64,000 nt of DNA from a virus (IMGVR_UViG_2778261223_000007:12132-76131), one strand, 5' to 3'. Positions 21,744 to 58,275 are shown, numbered from the stretch's first letter. The notes: generated from the sequence alone by a model not told the origin. Numbers and translations are program-made.

Positions 21744-21954
21744 TGCTGTTTCTAAATCGGAATGTATGATCTGCATCATCGACTGAAGTCATCCATTGCT
21801 GAAATTTTTAGTTGATCTTCCATGTTTTCAGGCTTATATTCATGCCGTCGTAGCAAATTCTGCGACCAGGTTTGACAGCCTGAATGTTAGTGCGGACAAC
21901 CGCAGATTTCCGATATTGCGGTATTTTTGTGTCCGTAAACCGCGTTACGCCCGA

Positions 21955-22085
21955 ATTATGGTGGGGCGTGATGGGGAGGCTTCGGCCTGCTGGTTTCACT
22001 AACGCCAGTCTGTCAACCCTGTCACGTCCTGCCACCTGTTTGACAGCGGGTAGCAGGTTGTTAAACCTGTTAGTGAGGCCGTAAC
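21955..22085 (+). ncRNA. candidate c4-type antisense/immunity RNA region
   Basis: ORF-free, hairpin-rich leader (GAGGC-TTCG-GCCT; CTGTCAA..TTGACAG) directly upstream of the icd-like ORF, as in P1 immI. Boundaries not determined. Confidence 0.25.
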
Positions 22086-33988: not shown

Positions 33989-34693
33989 TGCTGGTGGGCG
34001 GTACCCACGTTTCGCTTGCTGGGCTTGATAGTCACTTATTGGTTATTGTTCGCCCACCAGCATTTAACAAATTAAAGCGTTAGAAAAGTATAGTAACGCA
34101 AGAGCACGCTTTGGCACTGTGCAGGCAAAAGTTCAGCAGGTTTAGTGCGGAAAGTGGTTTCAGAGAGAGCACTTTGCGGAGTAAACGACAATACATGTTG
34201 AGCCACGGAAGGTCTTTTTAAGGTGTTCATTGATGATGGTCCGGCAGAGAGTAACGGTACATGCTGCATCTAATCATCAATGCACATCTTCAACATTAAG
34301 GAGGCATAGGGATTTTTGTGGCGGTTACCTTTTGCCCTGAGTCTCCTTAATGTTGCAGTAATGCACCTATGCGGATGTGGCCTTGCATTGTGTCTTGAAA
34401 GAATGGGGTAAGGCCGGGGATATCCCCAGGGGGAGGCACTCCCGCTGCAACGAACAGCCACAGACGGCAGTCGAGTGATGGGAACGTGAAAAGACTTTAA
34501 ACCTCGTTATGGCTGGCGTGGCAAACGCGACAACCGAGACAGAGCGGTGACGGGCGGAGAGAGTGCCGCATCAAGAAAGAAGCCGACTTGTGATCCCTTT
34601 CAGCGGGCATTTGAAAGTGAATCCAACTCAGGCAGTCGGCTTCTTTCTTGTGTGAGATGTAGCGTATTTGCCCATCTTCGGGTGGGCTTTTTT
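33989..34693 (+). ncRNA. candidate ~0.7-kb structured non-coding transcript
   Basis: Promoter-to-terminator unit without a credible ORF. Perfect stems of 10, 10, 13 and 16 bp (see findings). Confidence 0.35.
34670..34693 (+). terminator. intrinsic terminator
   Basis: GCCCATC-TTCG-GGTGGGC followed by T6. Confidence 0.8.
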
Positions 34694-34867
34694 AGGGTTT
34701 TCGTCATGGTTAGCGACTTTGCGGCGGTTTAGAAACCGACCATTAAAGTAAATGCAAACGATGATCTGATGATGGTAGCGGCCTAAGAAGCCAGACGCCA
34801 CGGGGTATGAGTCGTCCCCCGTCAAAAAATCGACCGCAGAGTGTCCCCGTCTGTGTATTAGGGAACG

Positions 34868-34964
34868 GGGAGGCATAACAGGCAAGGGCGCTGGTGTGAT
34901 TAACCAGATGAATGAGAAGGGTCAGGTCTTTCTGGTCAGCGCCCTTACCTGTTACGTCCCTCCC
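34868..34964 (+). other. long hairpin A of the CAYAACAGG family
   Basis: AACAGGCAAGGGCGCTG (34877-93) pairs with CAGCGCCCTTACCTGTT (34937-53); extended by GGGAGG/CCTCCC. Confidence 0.6.
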
Positions 34965-35153
34965 GCGTAACAGCCATTGCTTAATGGCATCCTGGGGGAA
35001 TTTCTTGTAACGGGTATATCCCGTCATGCTGAAGGCGCTAATCACGCTGGAAGCCAGGGTTGTGCATCCCCTGTTACCGAATTGCAGCCAGGGCGCGGTG
35101 CGCCGAAAAGCATACGGAGGTGGAAGCCCTCGCCGGAGACGTACCCGGCAAGT

Positions 35154-35229
35154 GATGGTGTAGCTCAGCGGTTAGAGCGGTTGACTGTTAATCAACGGGT
35201 CGATGGTTCAAATCCATCCACCATCGCCA
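35154..35229 (+). tRNA. tRNA-Asn (GUU)
   Basis: Manual cloverleaf: acceptor GATGGTG/CACCATC, D stem GCTC/GAGC, anticodon loop CTGTTAA, T arm GATGG-TTCAAAT-CCATC, encoded CCA. Confidence 0.9.
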
Positions 35230-35231
35230 AT

Positions 35232-35307
35232 GCCGGTTTAGCTCAGTTGGTAGAGCGCCTGCCTTGTAAGCAGGATGTCAGCGGTTCGAGTCCGTTAATC
35301 GGCACCA
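35232..35307 (+). tRNA. tRNA-Thr (UGU)
   Basis: Acceptor GCCGGTT/AATCGGC, anticodon loop CTTGTAA, T loop TTCGAGT, encoded CCA. Starts 2 nt after tRNA-Asn. Confidence 0.9.
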
Positions 35308-35308
35308 G

Positions 35309-35395
35309 CACAACAGGTAAGGGTATTTTGCGACGTCGGAGATCGCCGAGCTTGGCAGAGGGTTCGAATCCCTACGAAGTACCCTTACCGTTGTG
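35309..35395 (+). ncRNA. tRNA-like element lacking an anticodon arm, closed by a 16-bp bulged stem (hairpin B)
   Basis: CACAAC-A-GGTAAGGGTA pairs with TACCCTTACC-GTTGTG. Interior has a D-arm-like GCGA-CGTCGGAGA-TCGC and a T-arm AGGG-TTCGAAT-CCCT. No CCA. Confidence 0.45.
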
Positions 35396-35535
35396 ATGAA
35401 GTGCAGCTCTTTGAAGCAACCAGAAGATAAGCATCTGGCTTCACAACATAAACCGCAGGAACGACCAATAAACGGTAGTCCGTACGGAGAACACCCCGTT
35501 GAGGAAGAGGCCTGGCCGGAACCGTAACCGGCACT

Positions 35536-35627
35536 ACAACGTTGAGAACACTGGCGTAACGGGGTCATATCCCAATCTACGAATAAATGTTGCGTTGCAG
35601 CGTGACAACCAGTGTTCTCAACGTTGT
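35536..35627 (+). other. 19-bp perfect hairpin D (ACAACGTTGAGAACACTGG / CCAGTGTTCTCAACGTTGT)
   Basis: Perfect inverted repeat 35536-54 / 35609-27 with a 54-nt loop. Confidence 0.7.
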
Positions 35628-35772
35628 GGTGGATTCGCAGGCTGATGCGATAGCTTTCTTGGATGTTAGGGAAATGCGGCCGCAAATCTTCCCTTTCGCG
35701 AGCGGTGATCGTCCGTAGTCCTAATTGGCTGCACCGTATGCCGGAGATTCAGTACCGGCCACCACAACGGCC

Positions 35773-35859
35773 GGAGAGTAGGGCGCATGGTGCTCAAGCG
35801 GTCTTGAAAACCGTCCCATTGCGCAAGCGATGATGGTTCGATTCCATTACTCTCCGCCA
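35773..35859 (+). tRNA. class II tRNA-Ser (UGA), slightly non-canonical
   Basis: Acceptor GGAGAGT/ACTCTCC, anticodon stem GCGGT/ACCGT with loop CTTGAAA, variable arm ATTGC-GCAA-GCGAT, T loop TTCGATT, encoded CCA. Position 8 is A rather than U. Confidence 0.7.
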
Positions 35860-36126
35860 GCGCAACGTTAAGAGTATTTGGCTAATTAAGCGAATGCCGG
35901 AAGCAGAACCGGATCACCAAATGCGTACAGGCGTCATCGCCGCCCAGCCAGCCAAGTGCTCTTACCATTGCGGTGAATGCGGCTAAGCGCACGCGGAACA
36001 GTTAAAACAATCCTCCTTAGTGGTTAAGTCAAAAATCCCGGCGTTAATTGTTAACTGGTTAACGTCACCTGGAGGCACCAGGCACCGCAACCTAATAAAT
36101 ACGTCATGTTTATTGAGGGATAACCA

Positions 36127-36561
36127 ATGTTCGGTAAATTTTTCGGTAAGAAAGTCGCTTCAGCAAAAGTAGAGCTGAAAAGGGTTGAGAATCGCGATCT
36201 GATGGAGGCCATTATCGGTGGCTGTTTGTTGGTGTCTGCCGCAGATGGTGAAATCGAAAAGGAAGAAACAGCGAAACTTGATCAGCTTGTCCGCTCTAAT
36301 CCTCGCTTAAGTCATTTTGGCAACGAAATTACCGCAACAATCACCCGTTTTACTGAGCAACTGGAAGCTGGTTTCCGTGTTGGTCGCATGAATATCCTTC
36401 GCGAAATTGAAGATATCAAAAATGATCCAAAAGAAGCGGAAGAAGTATTCGTTAACATGCTGACGATTGCAGAAGCGGACGGTGAAATCGAGCCAGCAGA
36501 ACACAAAGTACTGGAAGAAGTAGGCCGTCGTTTGGGCCTTCGTGTGGAAGATTATCTGTAA
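36127..36561 (+). CDS. tciA: TerB-domain protein TciA
   Basis: 144 aa with two SAADGEIEKEE / AEADGEIEPAE TerB-type repeats; embedded in the tRNA cluster as in P1. Confidence 0.75.
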   Translation: MFGKFFGKKVASAKVELKRVENRDLMEAIIGGCLLVSAADGEIEKEETAKLDQLVRSNPRLSHFGNEITATITRFTEQLEAGFRVGRMNILREIEDIKNDPKEAEEVFVNMLTIAEADGEIEPAEHKVLEEVGRRLGLRVEDYL

Positions 36562-36725
36562 TGATTGGCAAGGCGCGTATTGCGTGCGCCATTGGTTTTC
36601 TCGTTTTGTCCGTGCTGGTGGATTTCACCAGCAAAGTGATGTCGGTGTTGGCTGATGGGGCACTGGTTTCAGTAGCTGTGGTATTGCTATTGCCGATTAT
36701 TAAAGCTGCGTTCAGGAACTCATGA
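36561..36725 (+). CDS. tciB: small membrane protein (TciB position)
   Basis: 54-aa ORF below the ORF-track cutoff. ATG overlaps the tciA stop (TAATG). Two hydrophobic helices. Confidence 0.5.
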   Translation: MIGKARIACAIGFLVLSVLVDFTSKVMSVLADGALVSVAVVLLLPIIKAAFRNS

Positions 36726-36835
36726 TGGATTTTTGGACGTATATTGATAAGAACCCTGGATGGTCTTTGCTATTTCTGCTTGTGATCGTATACGGAGTAG
36801 AACAAGTAGCGAAGAATCTCAGGCGTCGAAAATAA
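36722..36835 (+). CDS. tciC: small membrane protein (TciC position)
   Basis: 37-aa ORF MMDFWTYIDKNPGWSLLFLLVIVYGV..; overlaps the tciB stop. Confidence 0.45.
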   Translation: MMDFWTYIDKNPGWSLLFLLVIVYGVEQVAKNLRRRK

Positions 36836-36844
36836 AAACTAATT

Positions 36845-36920
36845 GGCCCCTTAGCTCAGTGGTTAGAGCTGGCGACTCATAATCGCACGGTCACCGGTTC
36901 AAGTCCGGTAGGGGCCACCA
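36845..36920 (+). tRNA. tRNA-Ile2 (CAU, lysidine type)
   Basis: GGCCCCTTAGCTCAGTGGTTAGAGC..CTCATAA.. is nearly identical in its 5' half to E. coli ileX as I remember it. Encoded CCA. Confidence 0.85.
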
Positions 36921-37104
36921 TATTTGGTTGTAACACGGCGTCTGGCACATGCGTCGTTAGCGGTCTGGTGACGTTAAAGGGGTTACCTTTTCCCCTAGCT
37001 CAGGCAACAAACCAGGTAGCCGGAATGTGCAAGCCCCGTTCATATCGTCGGACCGAGGATTCACCATCCTGGCGATTCGGTGTGACAGCCGGAAGAGCAC
37101 GGCG

Positions 37105-37152
37105 CACAACAGGAAAAGGCGTTTAATTAGCGTGAGCGCCGTTTCCGTTGTG
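37105..37152 (+). other. hairpin C of the CACAACAGG family
   Basis: CACAAC-A-GGAAAAGGCG pairs with CGCCGTTTCC-GTTGTG; same bulged A as hairpin B. Confidence 0.55.
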
Positions 37153-37374
37153 GTAATTGCGGCTATGCGCTCGTGACGAAGCCATTTTCATTCACTACGT
37201 TCTGATAAGTGACGTCGCCAGGAGTGGCTAACCTGGCAGGTGGAGGCACCACCGCCACAACTCCTTTCAATTCATCATATAGCCGCTCAGGCTGTACCCC
37301 TTAATTAATACGAAGTTACGACATCACTACCGGCACTTCCGGGGGATAGTCGCGCGTGTAAAAAAGGAGACGTT

Positions 37375-44618: not shown

Positions 44619-45091
44619 AAACTTATTACCCATCTCTGAATTGTTACCCGTCTTCCTATCCAGGATTGTCCGGGAAGCTGTTAGCTCTATTAGCTAAAGC
44701 ACCTACGGAATGGTTTAAGCCAGTCGTTATCAATCCACACTTCCTGGATTACGGATCTGTTCGCACTCGTAACGAACTCAAAAACCTACTGGCGCATGGA
44801 TTCATTCGACACCGTGCCGGTAAAGGCTATCAGTTATCGATTGCGCCAGAAGAGGCCGTGCGGCTATTCGCATATCGTGACAGCCAGACAAAAGCTCGGG
44901 TAATAGCTCAAATACTTCATAACGGCAGCACCTATGCCCGCCAGTTTGGCGGCGACACGTCGCAGTTCTTGCGGGCGGTGCGATCGCTGGAGGAGCAAGG
45001 AGTTATTGAAAGTTCCTGTCTTCCTGTTCCAACCGTTCCACATATCAAACGTCGGGTTTACACCTTCACGCAGAGAGCTAAAAAACAATGA
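44615..45091 (+). CDS. tandem winged-helix protein
   Basis: 158 aa with two wHTH-like segments (NELKNLLAHGFIRHRAGKGYQL; FLRAVRSLEEQGVIES); overlapping stop/start. Confidence 0.45.
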   Translation: MKTYYPSLNCYPSSYPGLSGKLLALLAKAPTEWFKPVVINPHFLDYGSVRTRNELKNLLAHGFIRHRAGKGYQLSIAPEEAVRLFAYRDSQTKARVIAQILHNGSTYARQFGGDTSQFLRAVRSLEEQGVIESSCLPVPTVPHIKRRVYTFTQRAKKQ

Positions 45092-57968: not shown

Positions 57969-58073
57969 AATACTGACTGTTGCGCCCTGGCATTATCGTG
58001 GGGTATATTTCTACGGCACCTTAGAAAAACGGGTGCCGGGATTGGAACCCCGGATAATGTCAAAGGCGACACA

Positions 58074-58094
58074 GACGCCGAAAGCGTCTTTTTT
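58074..58094 (+). terminator. intrinsic terminator
   Basis: GACGC-CGAAA-GCGTC followed by T6. Confidence 0.65.
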
Positions 58095-58109
58095 GTGTCA
58101 TGCCATCGC

Positions 58110-58275
58110 ACAGCCATACGTAGCGTTTAGCTCAGAGATCAATGGTAGTGCTGGCTGGGCTGCCGAAAGGCAGGCCGGTTCCCTTTGACGCCGGTAGTTC
58201 CAACCCAGTCAGTGCTACCGCCATTGAGATTGGAACCTCACGCGGTAGCTCCTTAACTTAGTCAAAGGAGGCTGC
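58110..58275 (+). ncRNA. candidate c4-type RNA region with tRNA-like 5' sequence
   Basis: GCGTTTAGCTCAGAG (tRNA D-arm-like), a CTGCC-GAAA-GGCAG hairpin, and CTCCTT..AAGGAG pairing that sequesters the icd SD. Boundaries unknown. Confidence 0.25.

What the first reader, a model, noticed from the sequence alone, without database searches (positions are those of the whole stretch)
34868..37152. Family of long hairpins with a shared CA(C/T)AAC(A)GG...CC-GTTGTG closing helix, interleaved with the tRNA genes
Four hairpins start and end with related sequence:
- A: 34877-93 / 34937-53
- B: 35309-25 / 35380-95
- C: 37105-21 / 37137-52
- D: 35536-54 / 35609-27 (19 bp, perfect)

B and C share a bulged A after CACAAC. 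The inner parts of the helices differ in sequence but stay paired: GGTAAGGGTA/TACCCTTACC, GGAAAAGGCG/CGCCGTTTCC and GGCAAGGGCGCTG/CAGCGCCCTTACC. These are compensatory differences, which suggests the structure rather than the sequence is conserved.

The loops are unrelated; B's loop holds a tRNA-like core. Possible roles are RNase III/RNase P processing modules for the tRNA operon, protein-binding decoys, or a small mobile hairpin element.
Basis: seen in the sequence. Interest (0 to 1): 0.7.

Follow-up and report, generated by a model that had tools for sequence, protein, structure and literature searches.

The report
Phage small-RNA precursor hairpin family
The four hairpins, plus a fifth that was missed, are real members of a large unnamed family of phage RNA hairpins; the phage lambda copy is the source of the small RNA LPR2, so these are most likely excisable small-RNA and processing modules in a transcript full of tRNAs, not a new kind of system.

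Summary
The window is phage D6, a P1 relative.

**Observation.** All four hairpins exist at the stated coordinates and fold far better than shuffles. A fifth copy lies at 35860-35975.

**Family.**
- More than 100 copies occur in temperate enterobacterial phages (lambda-, P22-, P1-, epsilon15- and Sasha-like). No Rfam family covers them.
- The basal stem is conserved in sequence: CACAAC, a bulged A, GG, a U.U mismatch, then AAG.
- The upper stem covaries. The interior is hypervariable, with 35 types in 115 copies.
- The sense strand folds better and points the same way as neighbouring tRNA genes.
- Interiors and flanks reassort, with exchange points inside the arms (P7 versus D6/P1 at hairpin B).
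- The 3' strand GUUGUG can instead pair with a downstream CACAAC that closes the next RNA domain. That second helix also covaries.

**Link to known biology.**
- Lambda has one canonical copy, just after the 6S terminator. The published northern probe for the ~63-nt Hfq-bound sRNA LPR2 maps inside it. The hairpin minus its outer helix is exactly 63 nt.
- An RNase III-dependent site in the E. coli K-12 dicF-dicB spacer maps beside the hairpin-5-linked closing helix when transferred to D6.

**Reading.** These are RNA hairpins excised from the leader, probably by RNase III. The enzyme is inferred, not shown.

The parts
34874..34956 (.). Hairpin A: CATAACAGGCAAGGGCGCTG ... CAGCGCCCTTACCTGTTACG. A degenerate family member with no bulge. 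The outer GGGGAGG/CCTCCC pairing extends it to 34867-34963. Its 3' strand CTGTTACG (34949-56) can also pair with CGTAACAG (34966-73).
   Evidence: (I2). Model R1 scores 36.8 bits on the minus strand and 26.6 on the plus strand in D6. The P1 orthologue scores 36.8 on plus and 31.5 on minus. Strand left open.
35309..35395 (+). Hairpin B, a canonical member that starts 1 nt after the CCA of tRNA-Thr. It has the outer helix CACAAC/GTTGTG, a bulged A at 35315, and the inner helix GGTAAGGGTA/TACCCTTACC. The interior holds a T-arm-like GGGTTCGAATCCC. By analogy with lambda LPR2, the predicted excised product is 35316-35389 (74 nt).
   Evidence: R1 63.6 bits, E 7e-17. Fold -42.7 kcal/mol, z -5.3. P7 carries a different interior between identical arms.
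35390..35447 (+). Domain E. It is closed by GUUGUGA (35390-96, shared with the 3' arm of B) and UCACAAC (35441-47). The conserved interior is UGCAG...ACAACCAGAAGAUAAGCAUCUGGC.
   Evidence: The same interior occurs in the epsilon34 PL-N leader, closed there by GAUGCGAUG/CAUCGCAUC. In phage Sasha it is closed by GUUGUGGUG/CACCACAAC.
35532..35631 (+). Hairpin D: CACTACAACGTTGAGAACACTGG / CCAGTGTTCTCAACGTTGTGGTG. It has 23 pairs, including one U:G that exists only on the plus strand. It is the most divergent member.
   Evidence: I3; -55.1 kcal/mol, z -8.3. R1 33.7 bits on plus against 27.3 on minus.
35622..35768 (+). Domain closed by GUUGUGGUGG (35622-31, shared with the 3' arm of D) and CCACCACAAC (35759-68). 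It starts with the widely recurring GAAU-GCGCAGGCUGAUGCG hairpin and ends 4 nt before tRNA-Ser.
   Evidence: the same arrangement is seen in BUCT554, CUS-3 and many IMG/VR loci.
35860..35975 (+). Arms are GCGCAAC-G-TTAAGAGTATTTGG / CCAAGTGCTCTTACCATTGCG. It starts directly after the CCA of tRNA-Ser. Its interior is the 'AATTAAGCGAATRCCGGAAGCAGAACCGGATCACCAA...' module that follows the lambda hairpin.
   Evidence: R1 29.8 bits, E 9e-7. The interior is compared with lambda.
35968..36092 (+). STnc100/PasD-like sRNA domain. It is closed by UUGCGGUG (35968-75, which is also the 3' arm of hairpin 5) and CACCGCAA (36085-92). It is homologous to the E. coli K-12 dicF-dicB spacer.
   Evidence: Rfam STnc100 scores 39.6 bits, below the gathering score of 47. 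It is 83% identical to K-12. An RNase III-dependent site at K-12 1,649,470 corresponds to D6 ~35983.
37105..37152 (+). Hairpin C, a canonical but short member with a bulged A at 37111. The predicted product is 37112-37146 (35 nt). Homology between D6 and P1/P7 ends at 37106, the hairpin's second base.
   Evidence: R1 45.4 bits, E 2e-11. The homology break is shown.
37147..37261 (+). Domain closed by GUUGUGGU (37147-54, shared with the 3' arm of C) and GCCACAAC (37254-61), upstream of orf6.
   Evidence: by direct reading.
35154..35307 (+). tRNA-Asn (GTT) and tRNA-Thr (TGT), the neighbours between hairpins A and B.
35773..35859 (+). tRNA-Ser (TGA), lying between the D-linked domain and hairpin 5.
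36845..36920 (+). tRNA with anticodon CAT (annotated Ile2 in P1), 184 nt upstream of hairpin C.

Best explanation
**What it is.** The hairpins act as RNA on the transcribed plus strand. They sit in the long untranslated leader that P1-like phages transcribe from the C1-controlled ban-type promoter. They belong to one family whose lambda member is the source of the ~63-nt Hfq-associated sRNA LPR2.

**Anatomy of each copy.**
- A sequence-conserved basal stem: CACAAC/GUUGUG, a bulged A, GG/CC, usually a U.U mismatch, then AAG/CUU.
- A covarying upper stem.
- A free 'payload' interior.

**Proposed steps, with their status.**
1. The hairpin folds as it is transcribed. *Status: inferred from covariation.*
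2. A double-strand-specific cut near the bulge removes the outer helix. This releases the upper hairpin as a small stable RNA. *Status: shown only for lambda, and only by size and probe position. The enzyme, most likely RNase III, is inferred.*
3. The same cut separates the neighbouring tRNAs and sRNA-like domains. *Status: inferred.*
4. The freed GUUGUG strand pairs with the downstream CACAAC to close the next domain, which is an sRNA-like fold or a tRNA acceptor stem. *Status: the helix is supported by covariation; the order of events is inferred.*

**By-product.** Because the arms are nearly identical between copies, they also serve as homology for recombination that swaps payloads and flanks.
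For: **Family and structure**
- At least 120 pattern matches were found in viral contigs. 117 of 126 form the helix. Chance matches in unrelated genomes do not: only 3 of 120 have the family's consensus arms.
- 94.9% of stem cells are paired. Five pairs show double changes in 48 cells, and none of 500 shuffles reaches this.
- All five D6 copies are found by a model built without them.

**Sense-strand RNA**
- Changes in the 5' outer strand almost all give wobble pairs. One stem position has a U:G pair as its consensus.
- The sense strand is more stable in 70 of 77 whole hairpins and 75 of 77 stems.
- All 13 loci that carry tRNA genes have the hairpin in the tRNA orientation.
- About 77% of flanking ORFs point the same way, and 51 of 119 copies sit directly after a T-run.

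**Product**
- Lambda has a 70.4-bit member at 44,783-44,866.
- The LPR2 northern probe P844 is antisense to lambda 44,816-44,850, inside that hairpin. LPR2 gives one band of ~63 nt, mainly in the lytic cycle, and is bound by Hfq (bioRxiv 10.1101/2024.10.31.621285).
- The segment from GG to CC in the lambda hairpin is exactly 63 nt.

**RNase III**
- The title of Daniels et al. [quoted passage not shown]
- This hairpin (6 + 13 pairs) is the longest helix found in that leader; the next longest, the 15-bp stem of the 6S terminator, is too short to be a good candidate.
- The homologue of D6 35968-36092 in the E. coli K-12 Qin prophage holds a known RNase III-dependent site beside its closing helix.

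**Second helix**
- It reaches 8 bp or more in 60 of 102 distinct downstream contexts. Its first extension pair is G:C, C:G or A:U in different copies.
- ACAAC occurs within 400 nt downstream in 95 of 119 copies, against 23 of 119 for GTTGT.

**Reassortment**
- 115 copies give 43 upstream contexts, 35 interiors and 43 downstream contexts.
- P7 has swapped the interior of hairpin B while keeping the arms.
Against: - There are no transcript data for D6 or P1.
- The ends of LPR2 are not mapped to the nucleotide. A 63-nt RNA that covers the probe could be offset by up to about 15 nt, so the exact 63-nt match is suggestive only.
- I could not read Daniels 1988. The position of its RNase III sites relative to the hairpin is therefore unverified.
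- The K-12 RNase III site lies in a neighbouring domain, not in a hairpin of this family. The weak family member in Qin (34.1 bits) has no reported site, although that operon is barely expressed.
- Hairpins A and D depart from the conserved basal features.
- The hairpins lack the usual Hfq-binding 3' U-tail.
- RNase E cleavage followed by exonuclease trimming back to a stable stem could also leave a hairpin-sized RNA.
Confidence: 0.6

Rival explanations
1. Passive structural punctuation. The hairpins are not cut. Instead they act as stable stems that stop 3' exonucleases and 5'-end-dependent RNase E decay. They also keep the long untranslated leader too structured for Rho to load. On this view the ~63-nt lambda RNA is a decay-resistant remnant.
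For: - The stems are very stable, at -23 to -55 kcal/mol.
- They sit at the edges of tRNAs, sRNA-like domains and terminators.
- The whole leader folds into closed domains.
Against: - Stability alone does not explain a basal stem that is conserved in sequence, with a fixed bulged A and a U.U mismatch, across unrelated phages.
- A remnant trimmed back to the stem should be about 76 nt in lambda, not ~63.
Confidence: 0.2
2. A DNA-level element. The inverted repeats would be recombination sites or linkers, such as attC-like folded single-strand sites or simple boundary homology. Their purpose would be to shuffle tRNA and sRNA cassettes, with RNA folding being incidental.
For: - Exchange points lie in the arms.
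- The AAC...GTT ends, an extrahelical base and a variable apical part resemble integron attC sites. This resemblance is from my own knowledge and was not tested with an attC model.
- CACAAC and GTTGTG alternate along the array.
- Clark and Casjens annotated 'boundary sequences' next to the CUS-3 copy.
Against: - Orientation follows transcription.
- The transcribed strand is the better-pairing one, whereas attC sites fold on the bottom strand.
- CACAAC does not fit the attC RYYYAAC box.
- These phages share no integron-type integrase.
- The lambda copy is expressed as a discrete RNA.
- Recombination in the arms is expected anyway for 20-nt near-identical sequences.
Confidence: 0.1
3. Decayed tRNA genes or tRNA mimics. 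On this view the long stems are extended acceptor stems, and the interiors are remnants of tRNA bodies that serve RNase P or tRNA-targeting defence systems.
For: - T-arm-like GGTTCGAnTCC hairpins occur in B and in several unrelated interiors.
- D6, P1 and Sf6-type phages place tRNAs in the same slots.
Against: - ARAGORN and the Rfam tRNA model are negative on the hairpins.
- Most interiors have no T-arm.
- Most loci have no tRNA gene.
- The T-arm-like hairpin lies on the 5' side in some interior types.
- There is no CCA at the 3' flank.
Confidence: 0.05
4. Protein-coding sequence on the minus strand: plp and upl as annotated in P1, and the 100-aa D6 ORF over hairpin A. The inverted repeats would then be incidental.
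For: - P1 annotates plp and upl across B, D and a fourth hairpin.
- The D6 ORF 34743-35045 matches phrog_27020.
Against: - The ORF over hairpin A is not open in P1 or P7.
- The plp-like ORF has no PHROG match and uses a TTG start. It also runs across a 19-nt length difference between P1 and P7 in the interior of B.
- The same hairpins occur in many phages where no such ORF exists.
Confidence: 0.03

Closest known systems
Phage lambda sRNA LPR2 (bioRxiv 10.1101/2024.10.31.621285)
   Same: - It is the same family by covariance model: lambda scores 70.4 bits and D6 hairpin B 63.6 bits.
- The basal stem is the same, the strand sense is the same, and both lie in an untranslated leader downstream of a regulated promoter.
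   Different: - LPR2 was described as a single lambda sRNA seen by RIL-seq and northern blot. No hairpin family, processing signal or relatives were reported.
- D6 has five copies with unrelated interiors, interleaved with tRNAs, in an early operon controlled by the C1 repressor rather than in the Q-dependent late leader.
RNase III processing hairpins of polycistronic phage and rRNA transcripts (T7 early R sites, rrn 16S/23S stems, DicF maturation)
   Same: - Stems of about 20 bp with small irregularities lie between functional RNAs.
- A family of related sites occurs within one transcript.
- The processing-site comparison rests on an RNase III-dependent site in the homologous K-12 dicF-dicB spacer.
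   Different: - Cleavage of these hairpins by RNase III is not shown.
- Here the basal stem is conserved across many unrelated phages and the apex is a swappable payload that itself accumulates.
- The 3' strand is shared with the next domain's closing helix.
Animal pri-miRNA hairpins (a working analogy only)
   Same: A recognisable basal stem directs a double-strand-specific cut that frees a variable upper hairpin from a long primary transcript.
   Different: The enzymes are unrelated and there is no homology. The product is about 35-100 nt and associates with Hfq. This is not a membership claim.
Integron attC sites
   Same: - Imperfect palindromes that begin ...AAC and end GTT...
- An extrahelical base and a hypervariable apex.
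- They flank exchangeable cassettes.
   Different: - The transcribed strand, not the bottom strand, is the better folder.
- The end boxes do not fit RYYYAAC/GTTRRRY.
- No integron integrase is present.
- The lambda copy is an expressed RNA.
STnc100 / PasD prophage sRNAs (Rfam RF02076; bioRxiv 10.64898/2026.05.13.724894)
   Same: - They lie in the same neighbourhoods, next to TerB/tciA, tRNAs and the Q-to-holin leader.
- D6 35968-36092 is an STnc100-like domain whose closing helix uses the 3' arm of hairpin 5.
   Different: - This is a different fold, and these sRNAs have their own terminators.
- The hairpin family itself has no Rfam match.

Membership tests
LPR2-type hairpin family (model R1, built here) | Significant score against a covariance model built from independent copies | tested here: met
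   B scores 63.6 bits, C 45.4, A 36.8, D 33.7 and hairpin 5 29.8. All have E of 1e-6 or lower in 64 kb, and nothing else in the window does.
LPR2-type hairpin family (model R1, built here) | Basal stem of CACAAC/GUUGUG, a bulged A, then GG/CC | tested here: inconclusive
   - Met in full by B and C.
- A has CAUAAC/GUUACG with the A paired.
- D lacks both the bulge and GG/CC.
- Hairpin 5 has GCGCAAC/AUUGCG, with UU opposite CC.
LPR2-type hairpin family (model R1, built here) | Sense orientation: the better-pairing strand is the transcribed strand | tested here: inconclusive
   - Met by B, C and D.
- Hairpin 5 is neutral.
- A is better on the minus strand in D6 but on the plus strand in P1.
LPR2-type hairpin family (model R1, built here) | Accumulation of a discrete small RNA from the hairpin | not testable with these tools
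   Known only for lambda: a ~63-nt band, with the probe lying inside the hairpin.
E. coli RNase III substrates | About two turns (roughly 20 bp) of double-stranded RNA | tested here: met
   The stems have 19-23 pairs with one bulge or mismatch.
E. coli RNase III substrates | Base-pair preferences in the proximal, middle and distal boxes | not tested
   The scoring matrix of PMC6212723 is in a figure and a supplement that are not held.
E. coli RNase III substrates | rnc-dependent staggered cleavage | not testable with these tools
   Only leads are available: the title of Daniels 1988 and the K-12 dicF-dicB site next to the homologous closing helix.
tRNA | Cloverleaf recognised by ARAGORN or Rfam RF00005 | tested here: not met
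   There is no call on any hairpin, including B with its T-arm-like loop.
Integron attC | The bottom strand is the folding strand; R boxes fit RYYYAAC/GTTRRRY; an integron integrase is nearby | tested here: not met
   - The top strand folds better in 75 of 77 stems.
- CACAAC breaks the YYY rule (direct reading).
- The family spans phage types that share no such integrase.
- No attC model was available to run.
Intrinsic terminators | GC-rich stem followed by a U-tract | tested here: not met
   No hairpin is followed by a T-run. The scan flags only the apex of C, with a weak GTTTCCGTTG tail.
MITE or other transposable hairpin element | Target-site duplication and many near-identical copies per genome | tested here: not met
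   The copies within D6 have unrelated interiors. Lambda has a single copy. The flanking CACAAC belongs to a covarying RNA helix.
Rfam STnc100 (for the neighbouring domain 35968-36092) | Score at or above the gathering threshold of 47 bits | tested here: not met
   It scores 39.6 bits. The domain is nonetheless 83% identical to the K-12 dicF-dicB spacer.

The most novel reading that the evidence does not exclude
The conserved arms form a bacterial-virus 'expression cassette' for small RNAs.
- A fixed basal stem tells a host double-strand nuclease where to cut.
- Any payload placed between the arms is released as an Hfq-associated RNA that could act as a sponge, decoy or regulator.
- Recombination within the arms lets temperate phages trade payloads.
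- The cut triggers a programmed refolding: GUUGUG leaves CACAAC number 1 and pairs with CACAAC number 2, which matures the next tRNA or sRNA in line.

This would be a modular, diversifying small-RNA platform, analogous in logic to pri-miRNA clusters.
Probability: 0.25. Interest if true: 0.8.

Novelty: new member of a known kind. Interest (0 to 1): 0.55.

Why it matters
- It ties an unannotated 2.3-kb stretch of P1-like phages to a recently seen but uncharacterised lambda sRNA, LPR2.
- It shows that LPR2 is one of more than 100 related hairpins in the best-studied temperate phages, none of them in Rfam.
- It gives a concrete, testable processing signal: the outer helix plus the bulged A.
- It suggests how phage tRNAs and leader sRNAs are cut apart.
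- It explains some mosaic joints in lambdoid late leaders.
- It indicates that the P1 genes plp and upl, lambda orf-64 and one PHROG family are probably not genes.

Tried and rejected
**Searches that gave nothing**
- Rfam, at gathering and at permissive thresholds, on the window and on 15 related loci. No family covers the hairpins.
- A pattern scan of 185,579 bacterial genomes was swamped by chance matches. Only 3 of 120 hits have the family's consensus arms.
- A search for targets of the five interiors within the window found only chance-level 10-12-mers.
- Scanning both K-12 RNase III data sets for a site at the weak Qin hairpin found none. That operon is hardly expressed.

**Ideas tested and set aside**
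- Minus-strand coding (plp-like ORF, phrog_27020): rejected.
- The common 'GUGAAUGCGCAGGCUGAUGCG' downstream domains being STnc100 relatives: no sub-threshold Rfam hits in lambda, CUS-3, BUCT554 or Sasha.
- Nus-factor boxA. The consensus 3' arm, CAGUGCUCUUU, resembles rrn boxA as I remember it. However, it is base-paired, it covaries away in many copies, and it is absent from D6 hairpins A to D. Rejected as a function.

**Sources I could not reach**
- Daniels 1988 and the P1 genome paper are not held.

**Not relied on**
- A duplex prediction between LPR2 and the lambda PreS region was only marginally better than shuffles (-46.3 against -36.5 ± 3.9 kcal/mol).


Full report
**Identity of the window.** The region is 100% identical to Escherichia phage D6, a P1-like plasmid prophage. 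It corresponds to the untranslated stretch that in P1 and P7 lies between the C1-controlled ban promoter/operator and ban. That stretch carries a dicF-like region, tRNA-Asn, tRNA-Thr, tciA/B/C and a CAT-anticodon tRNA. D6 has an extra tRNA-Ser.

- All four arm pairs are at the stated coordinates.
- Each hairpin folds far better than dinucleotide shuffles, with z-scores from -3.4 to -8.3.
- Long inverted repeats are concentrated here. Five of the nine in 64 kb lie in 34217-35631.
- CACAAC is at chance level window-wide (36 found against 32 expected). Yet nine of the 36 fall within 35059-37261.

**A large family outside D6.** A distant BLAST of 35300-35760 showed that this stretch is a mosaic of 60-140-nt modules found separately in unrelated temperate phages. 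Hairpin B alone appears in Enterobacter phage BUCT554.

I then searched viral contigs with the pattern AACAGGYAAG, a gap of 40-70 nt, then YCGTTGTG.
- 117 of 126 matches have the extended helix.
- The same pattern in a collection of bacterial and archaeal genomes gave almost only chance matches, with the distribution of paired positions centred on 7-8 of 16. Only three had the family's consensus arms.

The family consensus is: 5'-CACAAC, a bulged A, GG, U, AAGAGCAUUG, then 25-50 variable nt, then CAGUGCUCUU, U or A, YC, GUUGUG-3'.

**Covariation, on 77 distinct copies.**
- 94.9% of stem cells are paired.
- Five pairs carry double changes in 48 cells, and none of 500 shuffles reaches the observed values. 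Sliding the partner columns destroys the signal.
- The search pattern fixed part of both arms. The informative positions are therefore the upper stem and the outer 5' strand.
- On the outer 5' strand, 36 of 37 changes give wobble pairs.
- One stem position has U:G as its consensus. One position is a U.U mismatch in 58 of 77 copies.

**The sense strand is the functional one.**
- The sense RNA is more stable than the antisense in 70 of 77 whole hairpins and in 75 of 77 stems.
- All 13 loci with tRNA genes have the hairpin in the tRNA orientation.
- About 43 of 60 loci have no tRNA gene at all. The association with tRNAs is therefore not a property of the family.

**Membership of the D6 copies.** A covariance model (R1) built from those 77 copies gave these results on the window:

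| Hairpin | Bits | Strand note |
|---|---|---|
| B | 63.6 | plus |
| C | 45.4 | plus |
| A | 36.8 | minus (26.6 on plus) |
| D | 33.7 | plus |
| Fifth copy, 35857-35976 | 29.8 | plus |

- Nothing else in the window has an E-value below 0.01.
- The unrelated dicF-like hairpin scores 12.7 bits.
- P1 has four copies, one of them inside the annotated upl gene. P7 has its own set. Lambda has exactly one.

**Modularity.**
- 115 copies fall into 43 upstream contexts, 35 interiors and 43 downstream contexts, giving 77 combinations.
- At hairpin B, P7 is identical to D6 and P1 through the flanks and most of both arms. Its interior, however, is a different type that is common in lambdoid phages.
- Homology between D6 and P1/P7 ends at 37106, the second base of hairpin C.
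- In CUS-3 the hairpin plus a ~210-nt domain occupies exactly the slot that tRNA-Asn and tRNA-Thr occupy in Sf6. That slot lies between tR' and a conserved pre-holin block annotated as a 'boundary sequence'.

**A second, competing helix.**
- The 3' strand GUUGUG, plus 1-4 further nt, is complementary to a downstream (N)CACAAC. This pairing closes the next domain.
- In D6 the pairs are 35390-96/35441-47, 35622-31/35759-68, 37147-54/37254-61 and 35968-75/36085-92.
- Across 102 distinct downstream contexts the helix reaches 8 bp or more in 60. Its first extension pair is G:C, C:G or A:U in different copies.
- ACAAC occurs within 400 nt downstream in 95 of 119 copies, against 23 of 119 for GTTGT.
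- In the lambda leader the minimum-energy fold uses this second helix, while the centroid fold uses the hairpin.
- Where a tRNA follows directly, the last GUG of the hairpin forms the first bases of the acceptor stem.

**Link to known biology.**
- The lambda copy lies at 44,787-44,862, 5 nt after the 6S/tR' terminator, and overlaps the end of the hypothetical orf-64.
- A 2024 preprint on lambda RIL-seq reports LPR2. It is an Hfq-bound RNA that gives one ~63-nt northern band, mainly in the lytic cycle, and lies close to 6S RNA. Its RIL-seq partners are PreS and fliC.
- The LPR2 probe is antisense to lambda 44,816-44,850, which is inside the hairpin.
- The hairpin without CACAAC-A and GUUGUG is exactly 63 nt. 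The size on the blot is approximate and the ends are not mapped, so this match is suggestive, not proof.

**Evidence bearing on RNase III.**
[quoted passage not shown] I could not read it.
- D6 35968-36092 is 83% identical to the E. coli K-12 dicF-dicB spacer.
- A published rnc comparison lists a known RNase III-dependent site at K-12 1,649,470.
- That site lies 8 nt beyond the 5' strand of the domain's closing helix. In D6 the same strand is also the 3' arm of hairpin 5.
- K-12 also has a weak family member between ydfC and dicF.

**Interpretation.**
- *Shown:* a conserved, sense-strand RNA hairpin family; five copies in D6; reassortment through the arms; a covarying alternative helix; and a discrete small RNA from the lambda copy.
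- *Inferred:* excision at the bulge junction by RNase III; the same processing in D6; the role in separating tRNAs from sRNA-like domains; and refolding after the cut.
- *Rivals:* passive stabilising stems, DNA-level recombination sites, tRNA relics and minus-strand coding. Each is weighed in its own section, and none fits as many observations.

**Novelty.** The D6 hairpins are new members of a kind that has one recently reported but uncharacterised representative, lambda LPR2. They are processed in a way that resembles known RNase III sites in phage and rRNA transcripts. New here are the family itself, its conserved processing stem with swappable payloads, and the shared-strand arrangement with the next domain.

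Noticed in passing
Its interior is the module that follows the lambda hairpin rather than sitting inside one. The same cargo can therefore lie either inside a hairpin or between hairpins.
   Followed up: yes
window 35968-36092: This is an STnc100/PasD-like sRNA domain (39.6 bits, below the Rfam threshold). It is 83% identical to the E. coli K-12 dicF-dicB spacer, which holds a known RNase III-dependent site.
   Followed up: yes
window 34572-34692: The counterpart of P1's annotated 'dicF-like region'. It has a perfect 17-bp hairpin (34572-88/34634-50) followed by a strong intrinsic terminator (34670-87 plus T6). It is not a member of the hairpin family (12.7 bits).
   Followed up: partly
window 35390-35447; L005 1500-1560; L006 1515-1570: A ~58-nt hairpin module with a conserved interior (UGCAG...ACAACCAGAAGAUAAGCRYCUGGC). 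It is also found in Sashavirus and between PL and the N gene of epsilon34-type P22-like phages. That is the position where, from memory, lambda has its N-leader RNase III site. Its closing helix differs completely between phages.
   Followed up: partly
window 36921-37104; L004 1340-1500: A ~180-nt conserved non-coding block (GGCACATGCGTCG...GTAGCCGGAATGTGCAAG...GGTGTGACAGCCGGAAGAG). It lies downstream of the CAT-anticodon tRNA and directly upstream of hairpin C. It recurs upstream of family hairpins in BUCT554 and in viral contigs.
   Followed up: no
L003 (P1) 2083-2652; window 35278-35685 and 34743-35045: The P1 genes plp and upl lie antisense over three family hairpins and overlap tRNA-Thr. 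The D6 ORF over hairpin A matches phrog_27020 but is not open in P1 or P7. These are probably not genes, and that PHROG family may be built from non-coding DNA.
   Followed up: partly
L249 322-516 (lambda 44,621-44,815): The hypothetical lambda orf-64 starts inside 6S RNA, runs through tR' and ends in the 5' arm of the hairpin. It is probably not a real gene.
   Followed up: no
alignment A1, columns 79-91: The consensus 3' arm, GCAGUGCUCUUUCC, resembles the rrn antitermination boxA with its 5' flank (GCACUGCUCUUUAACAA, from memory). It is base-paired and not conserved in the D6 copies, so the resemblance is probably coincidence or shared ancestry.
   Followed up: partly
L251 19170-19261 (E. 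coli K-12 1,649,169-1,649,260): [quoted passage not shown]
   Followed up: partly
window 21834-22039 and 58016-58225: There are two separate C4 antisense-RNA loci. One has the a1/b1 target element upstream and the other has an isrK-like RNA upstream. This suggests two immunity-type regulatory regions in this phage.
   Followed up: no
window 35773-35859: The tRNA-Ser (UGA) is called by ARAGORN. In the permissive Rfam scan its only listed match is tRNA-Sec at 43.1 bits, below that family's threshold of 47, and it has no match at gathering thresholds. The GenBank record notes that tRNAscan-SE did not assign its amino acid.
   Followed up: no
L191 and L203 (genome contigs): Lambda-type copies with identical interiors turn up in contigs labelled Pseudomonas sp. 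30_B and a Chromatiales MAG. This could reflect contamination or an unexpectedly wide host range.
   Followed up: no
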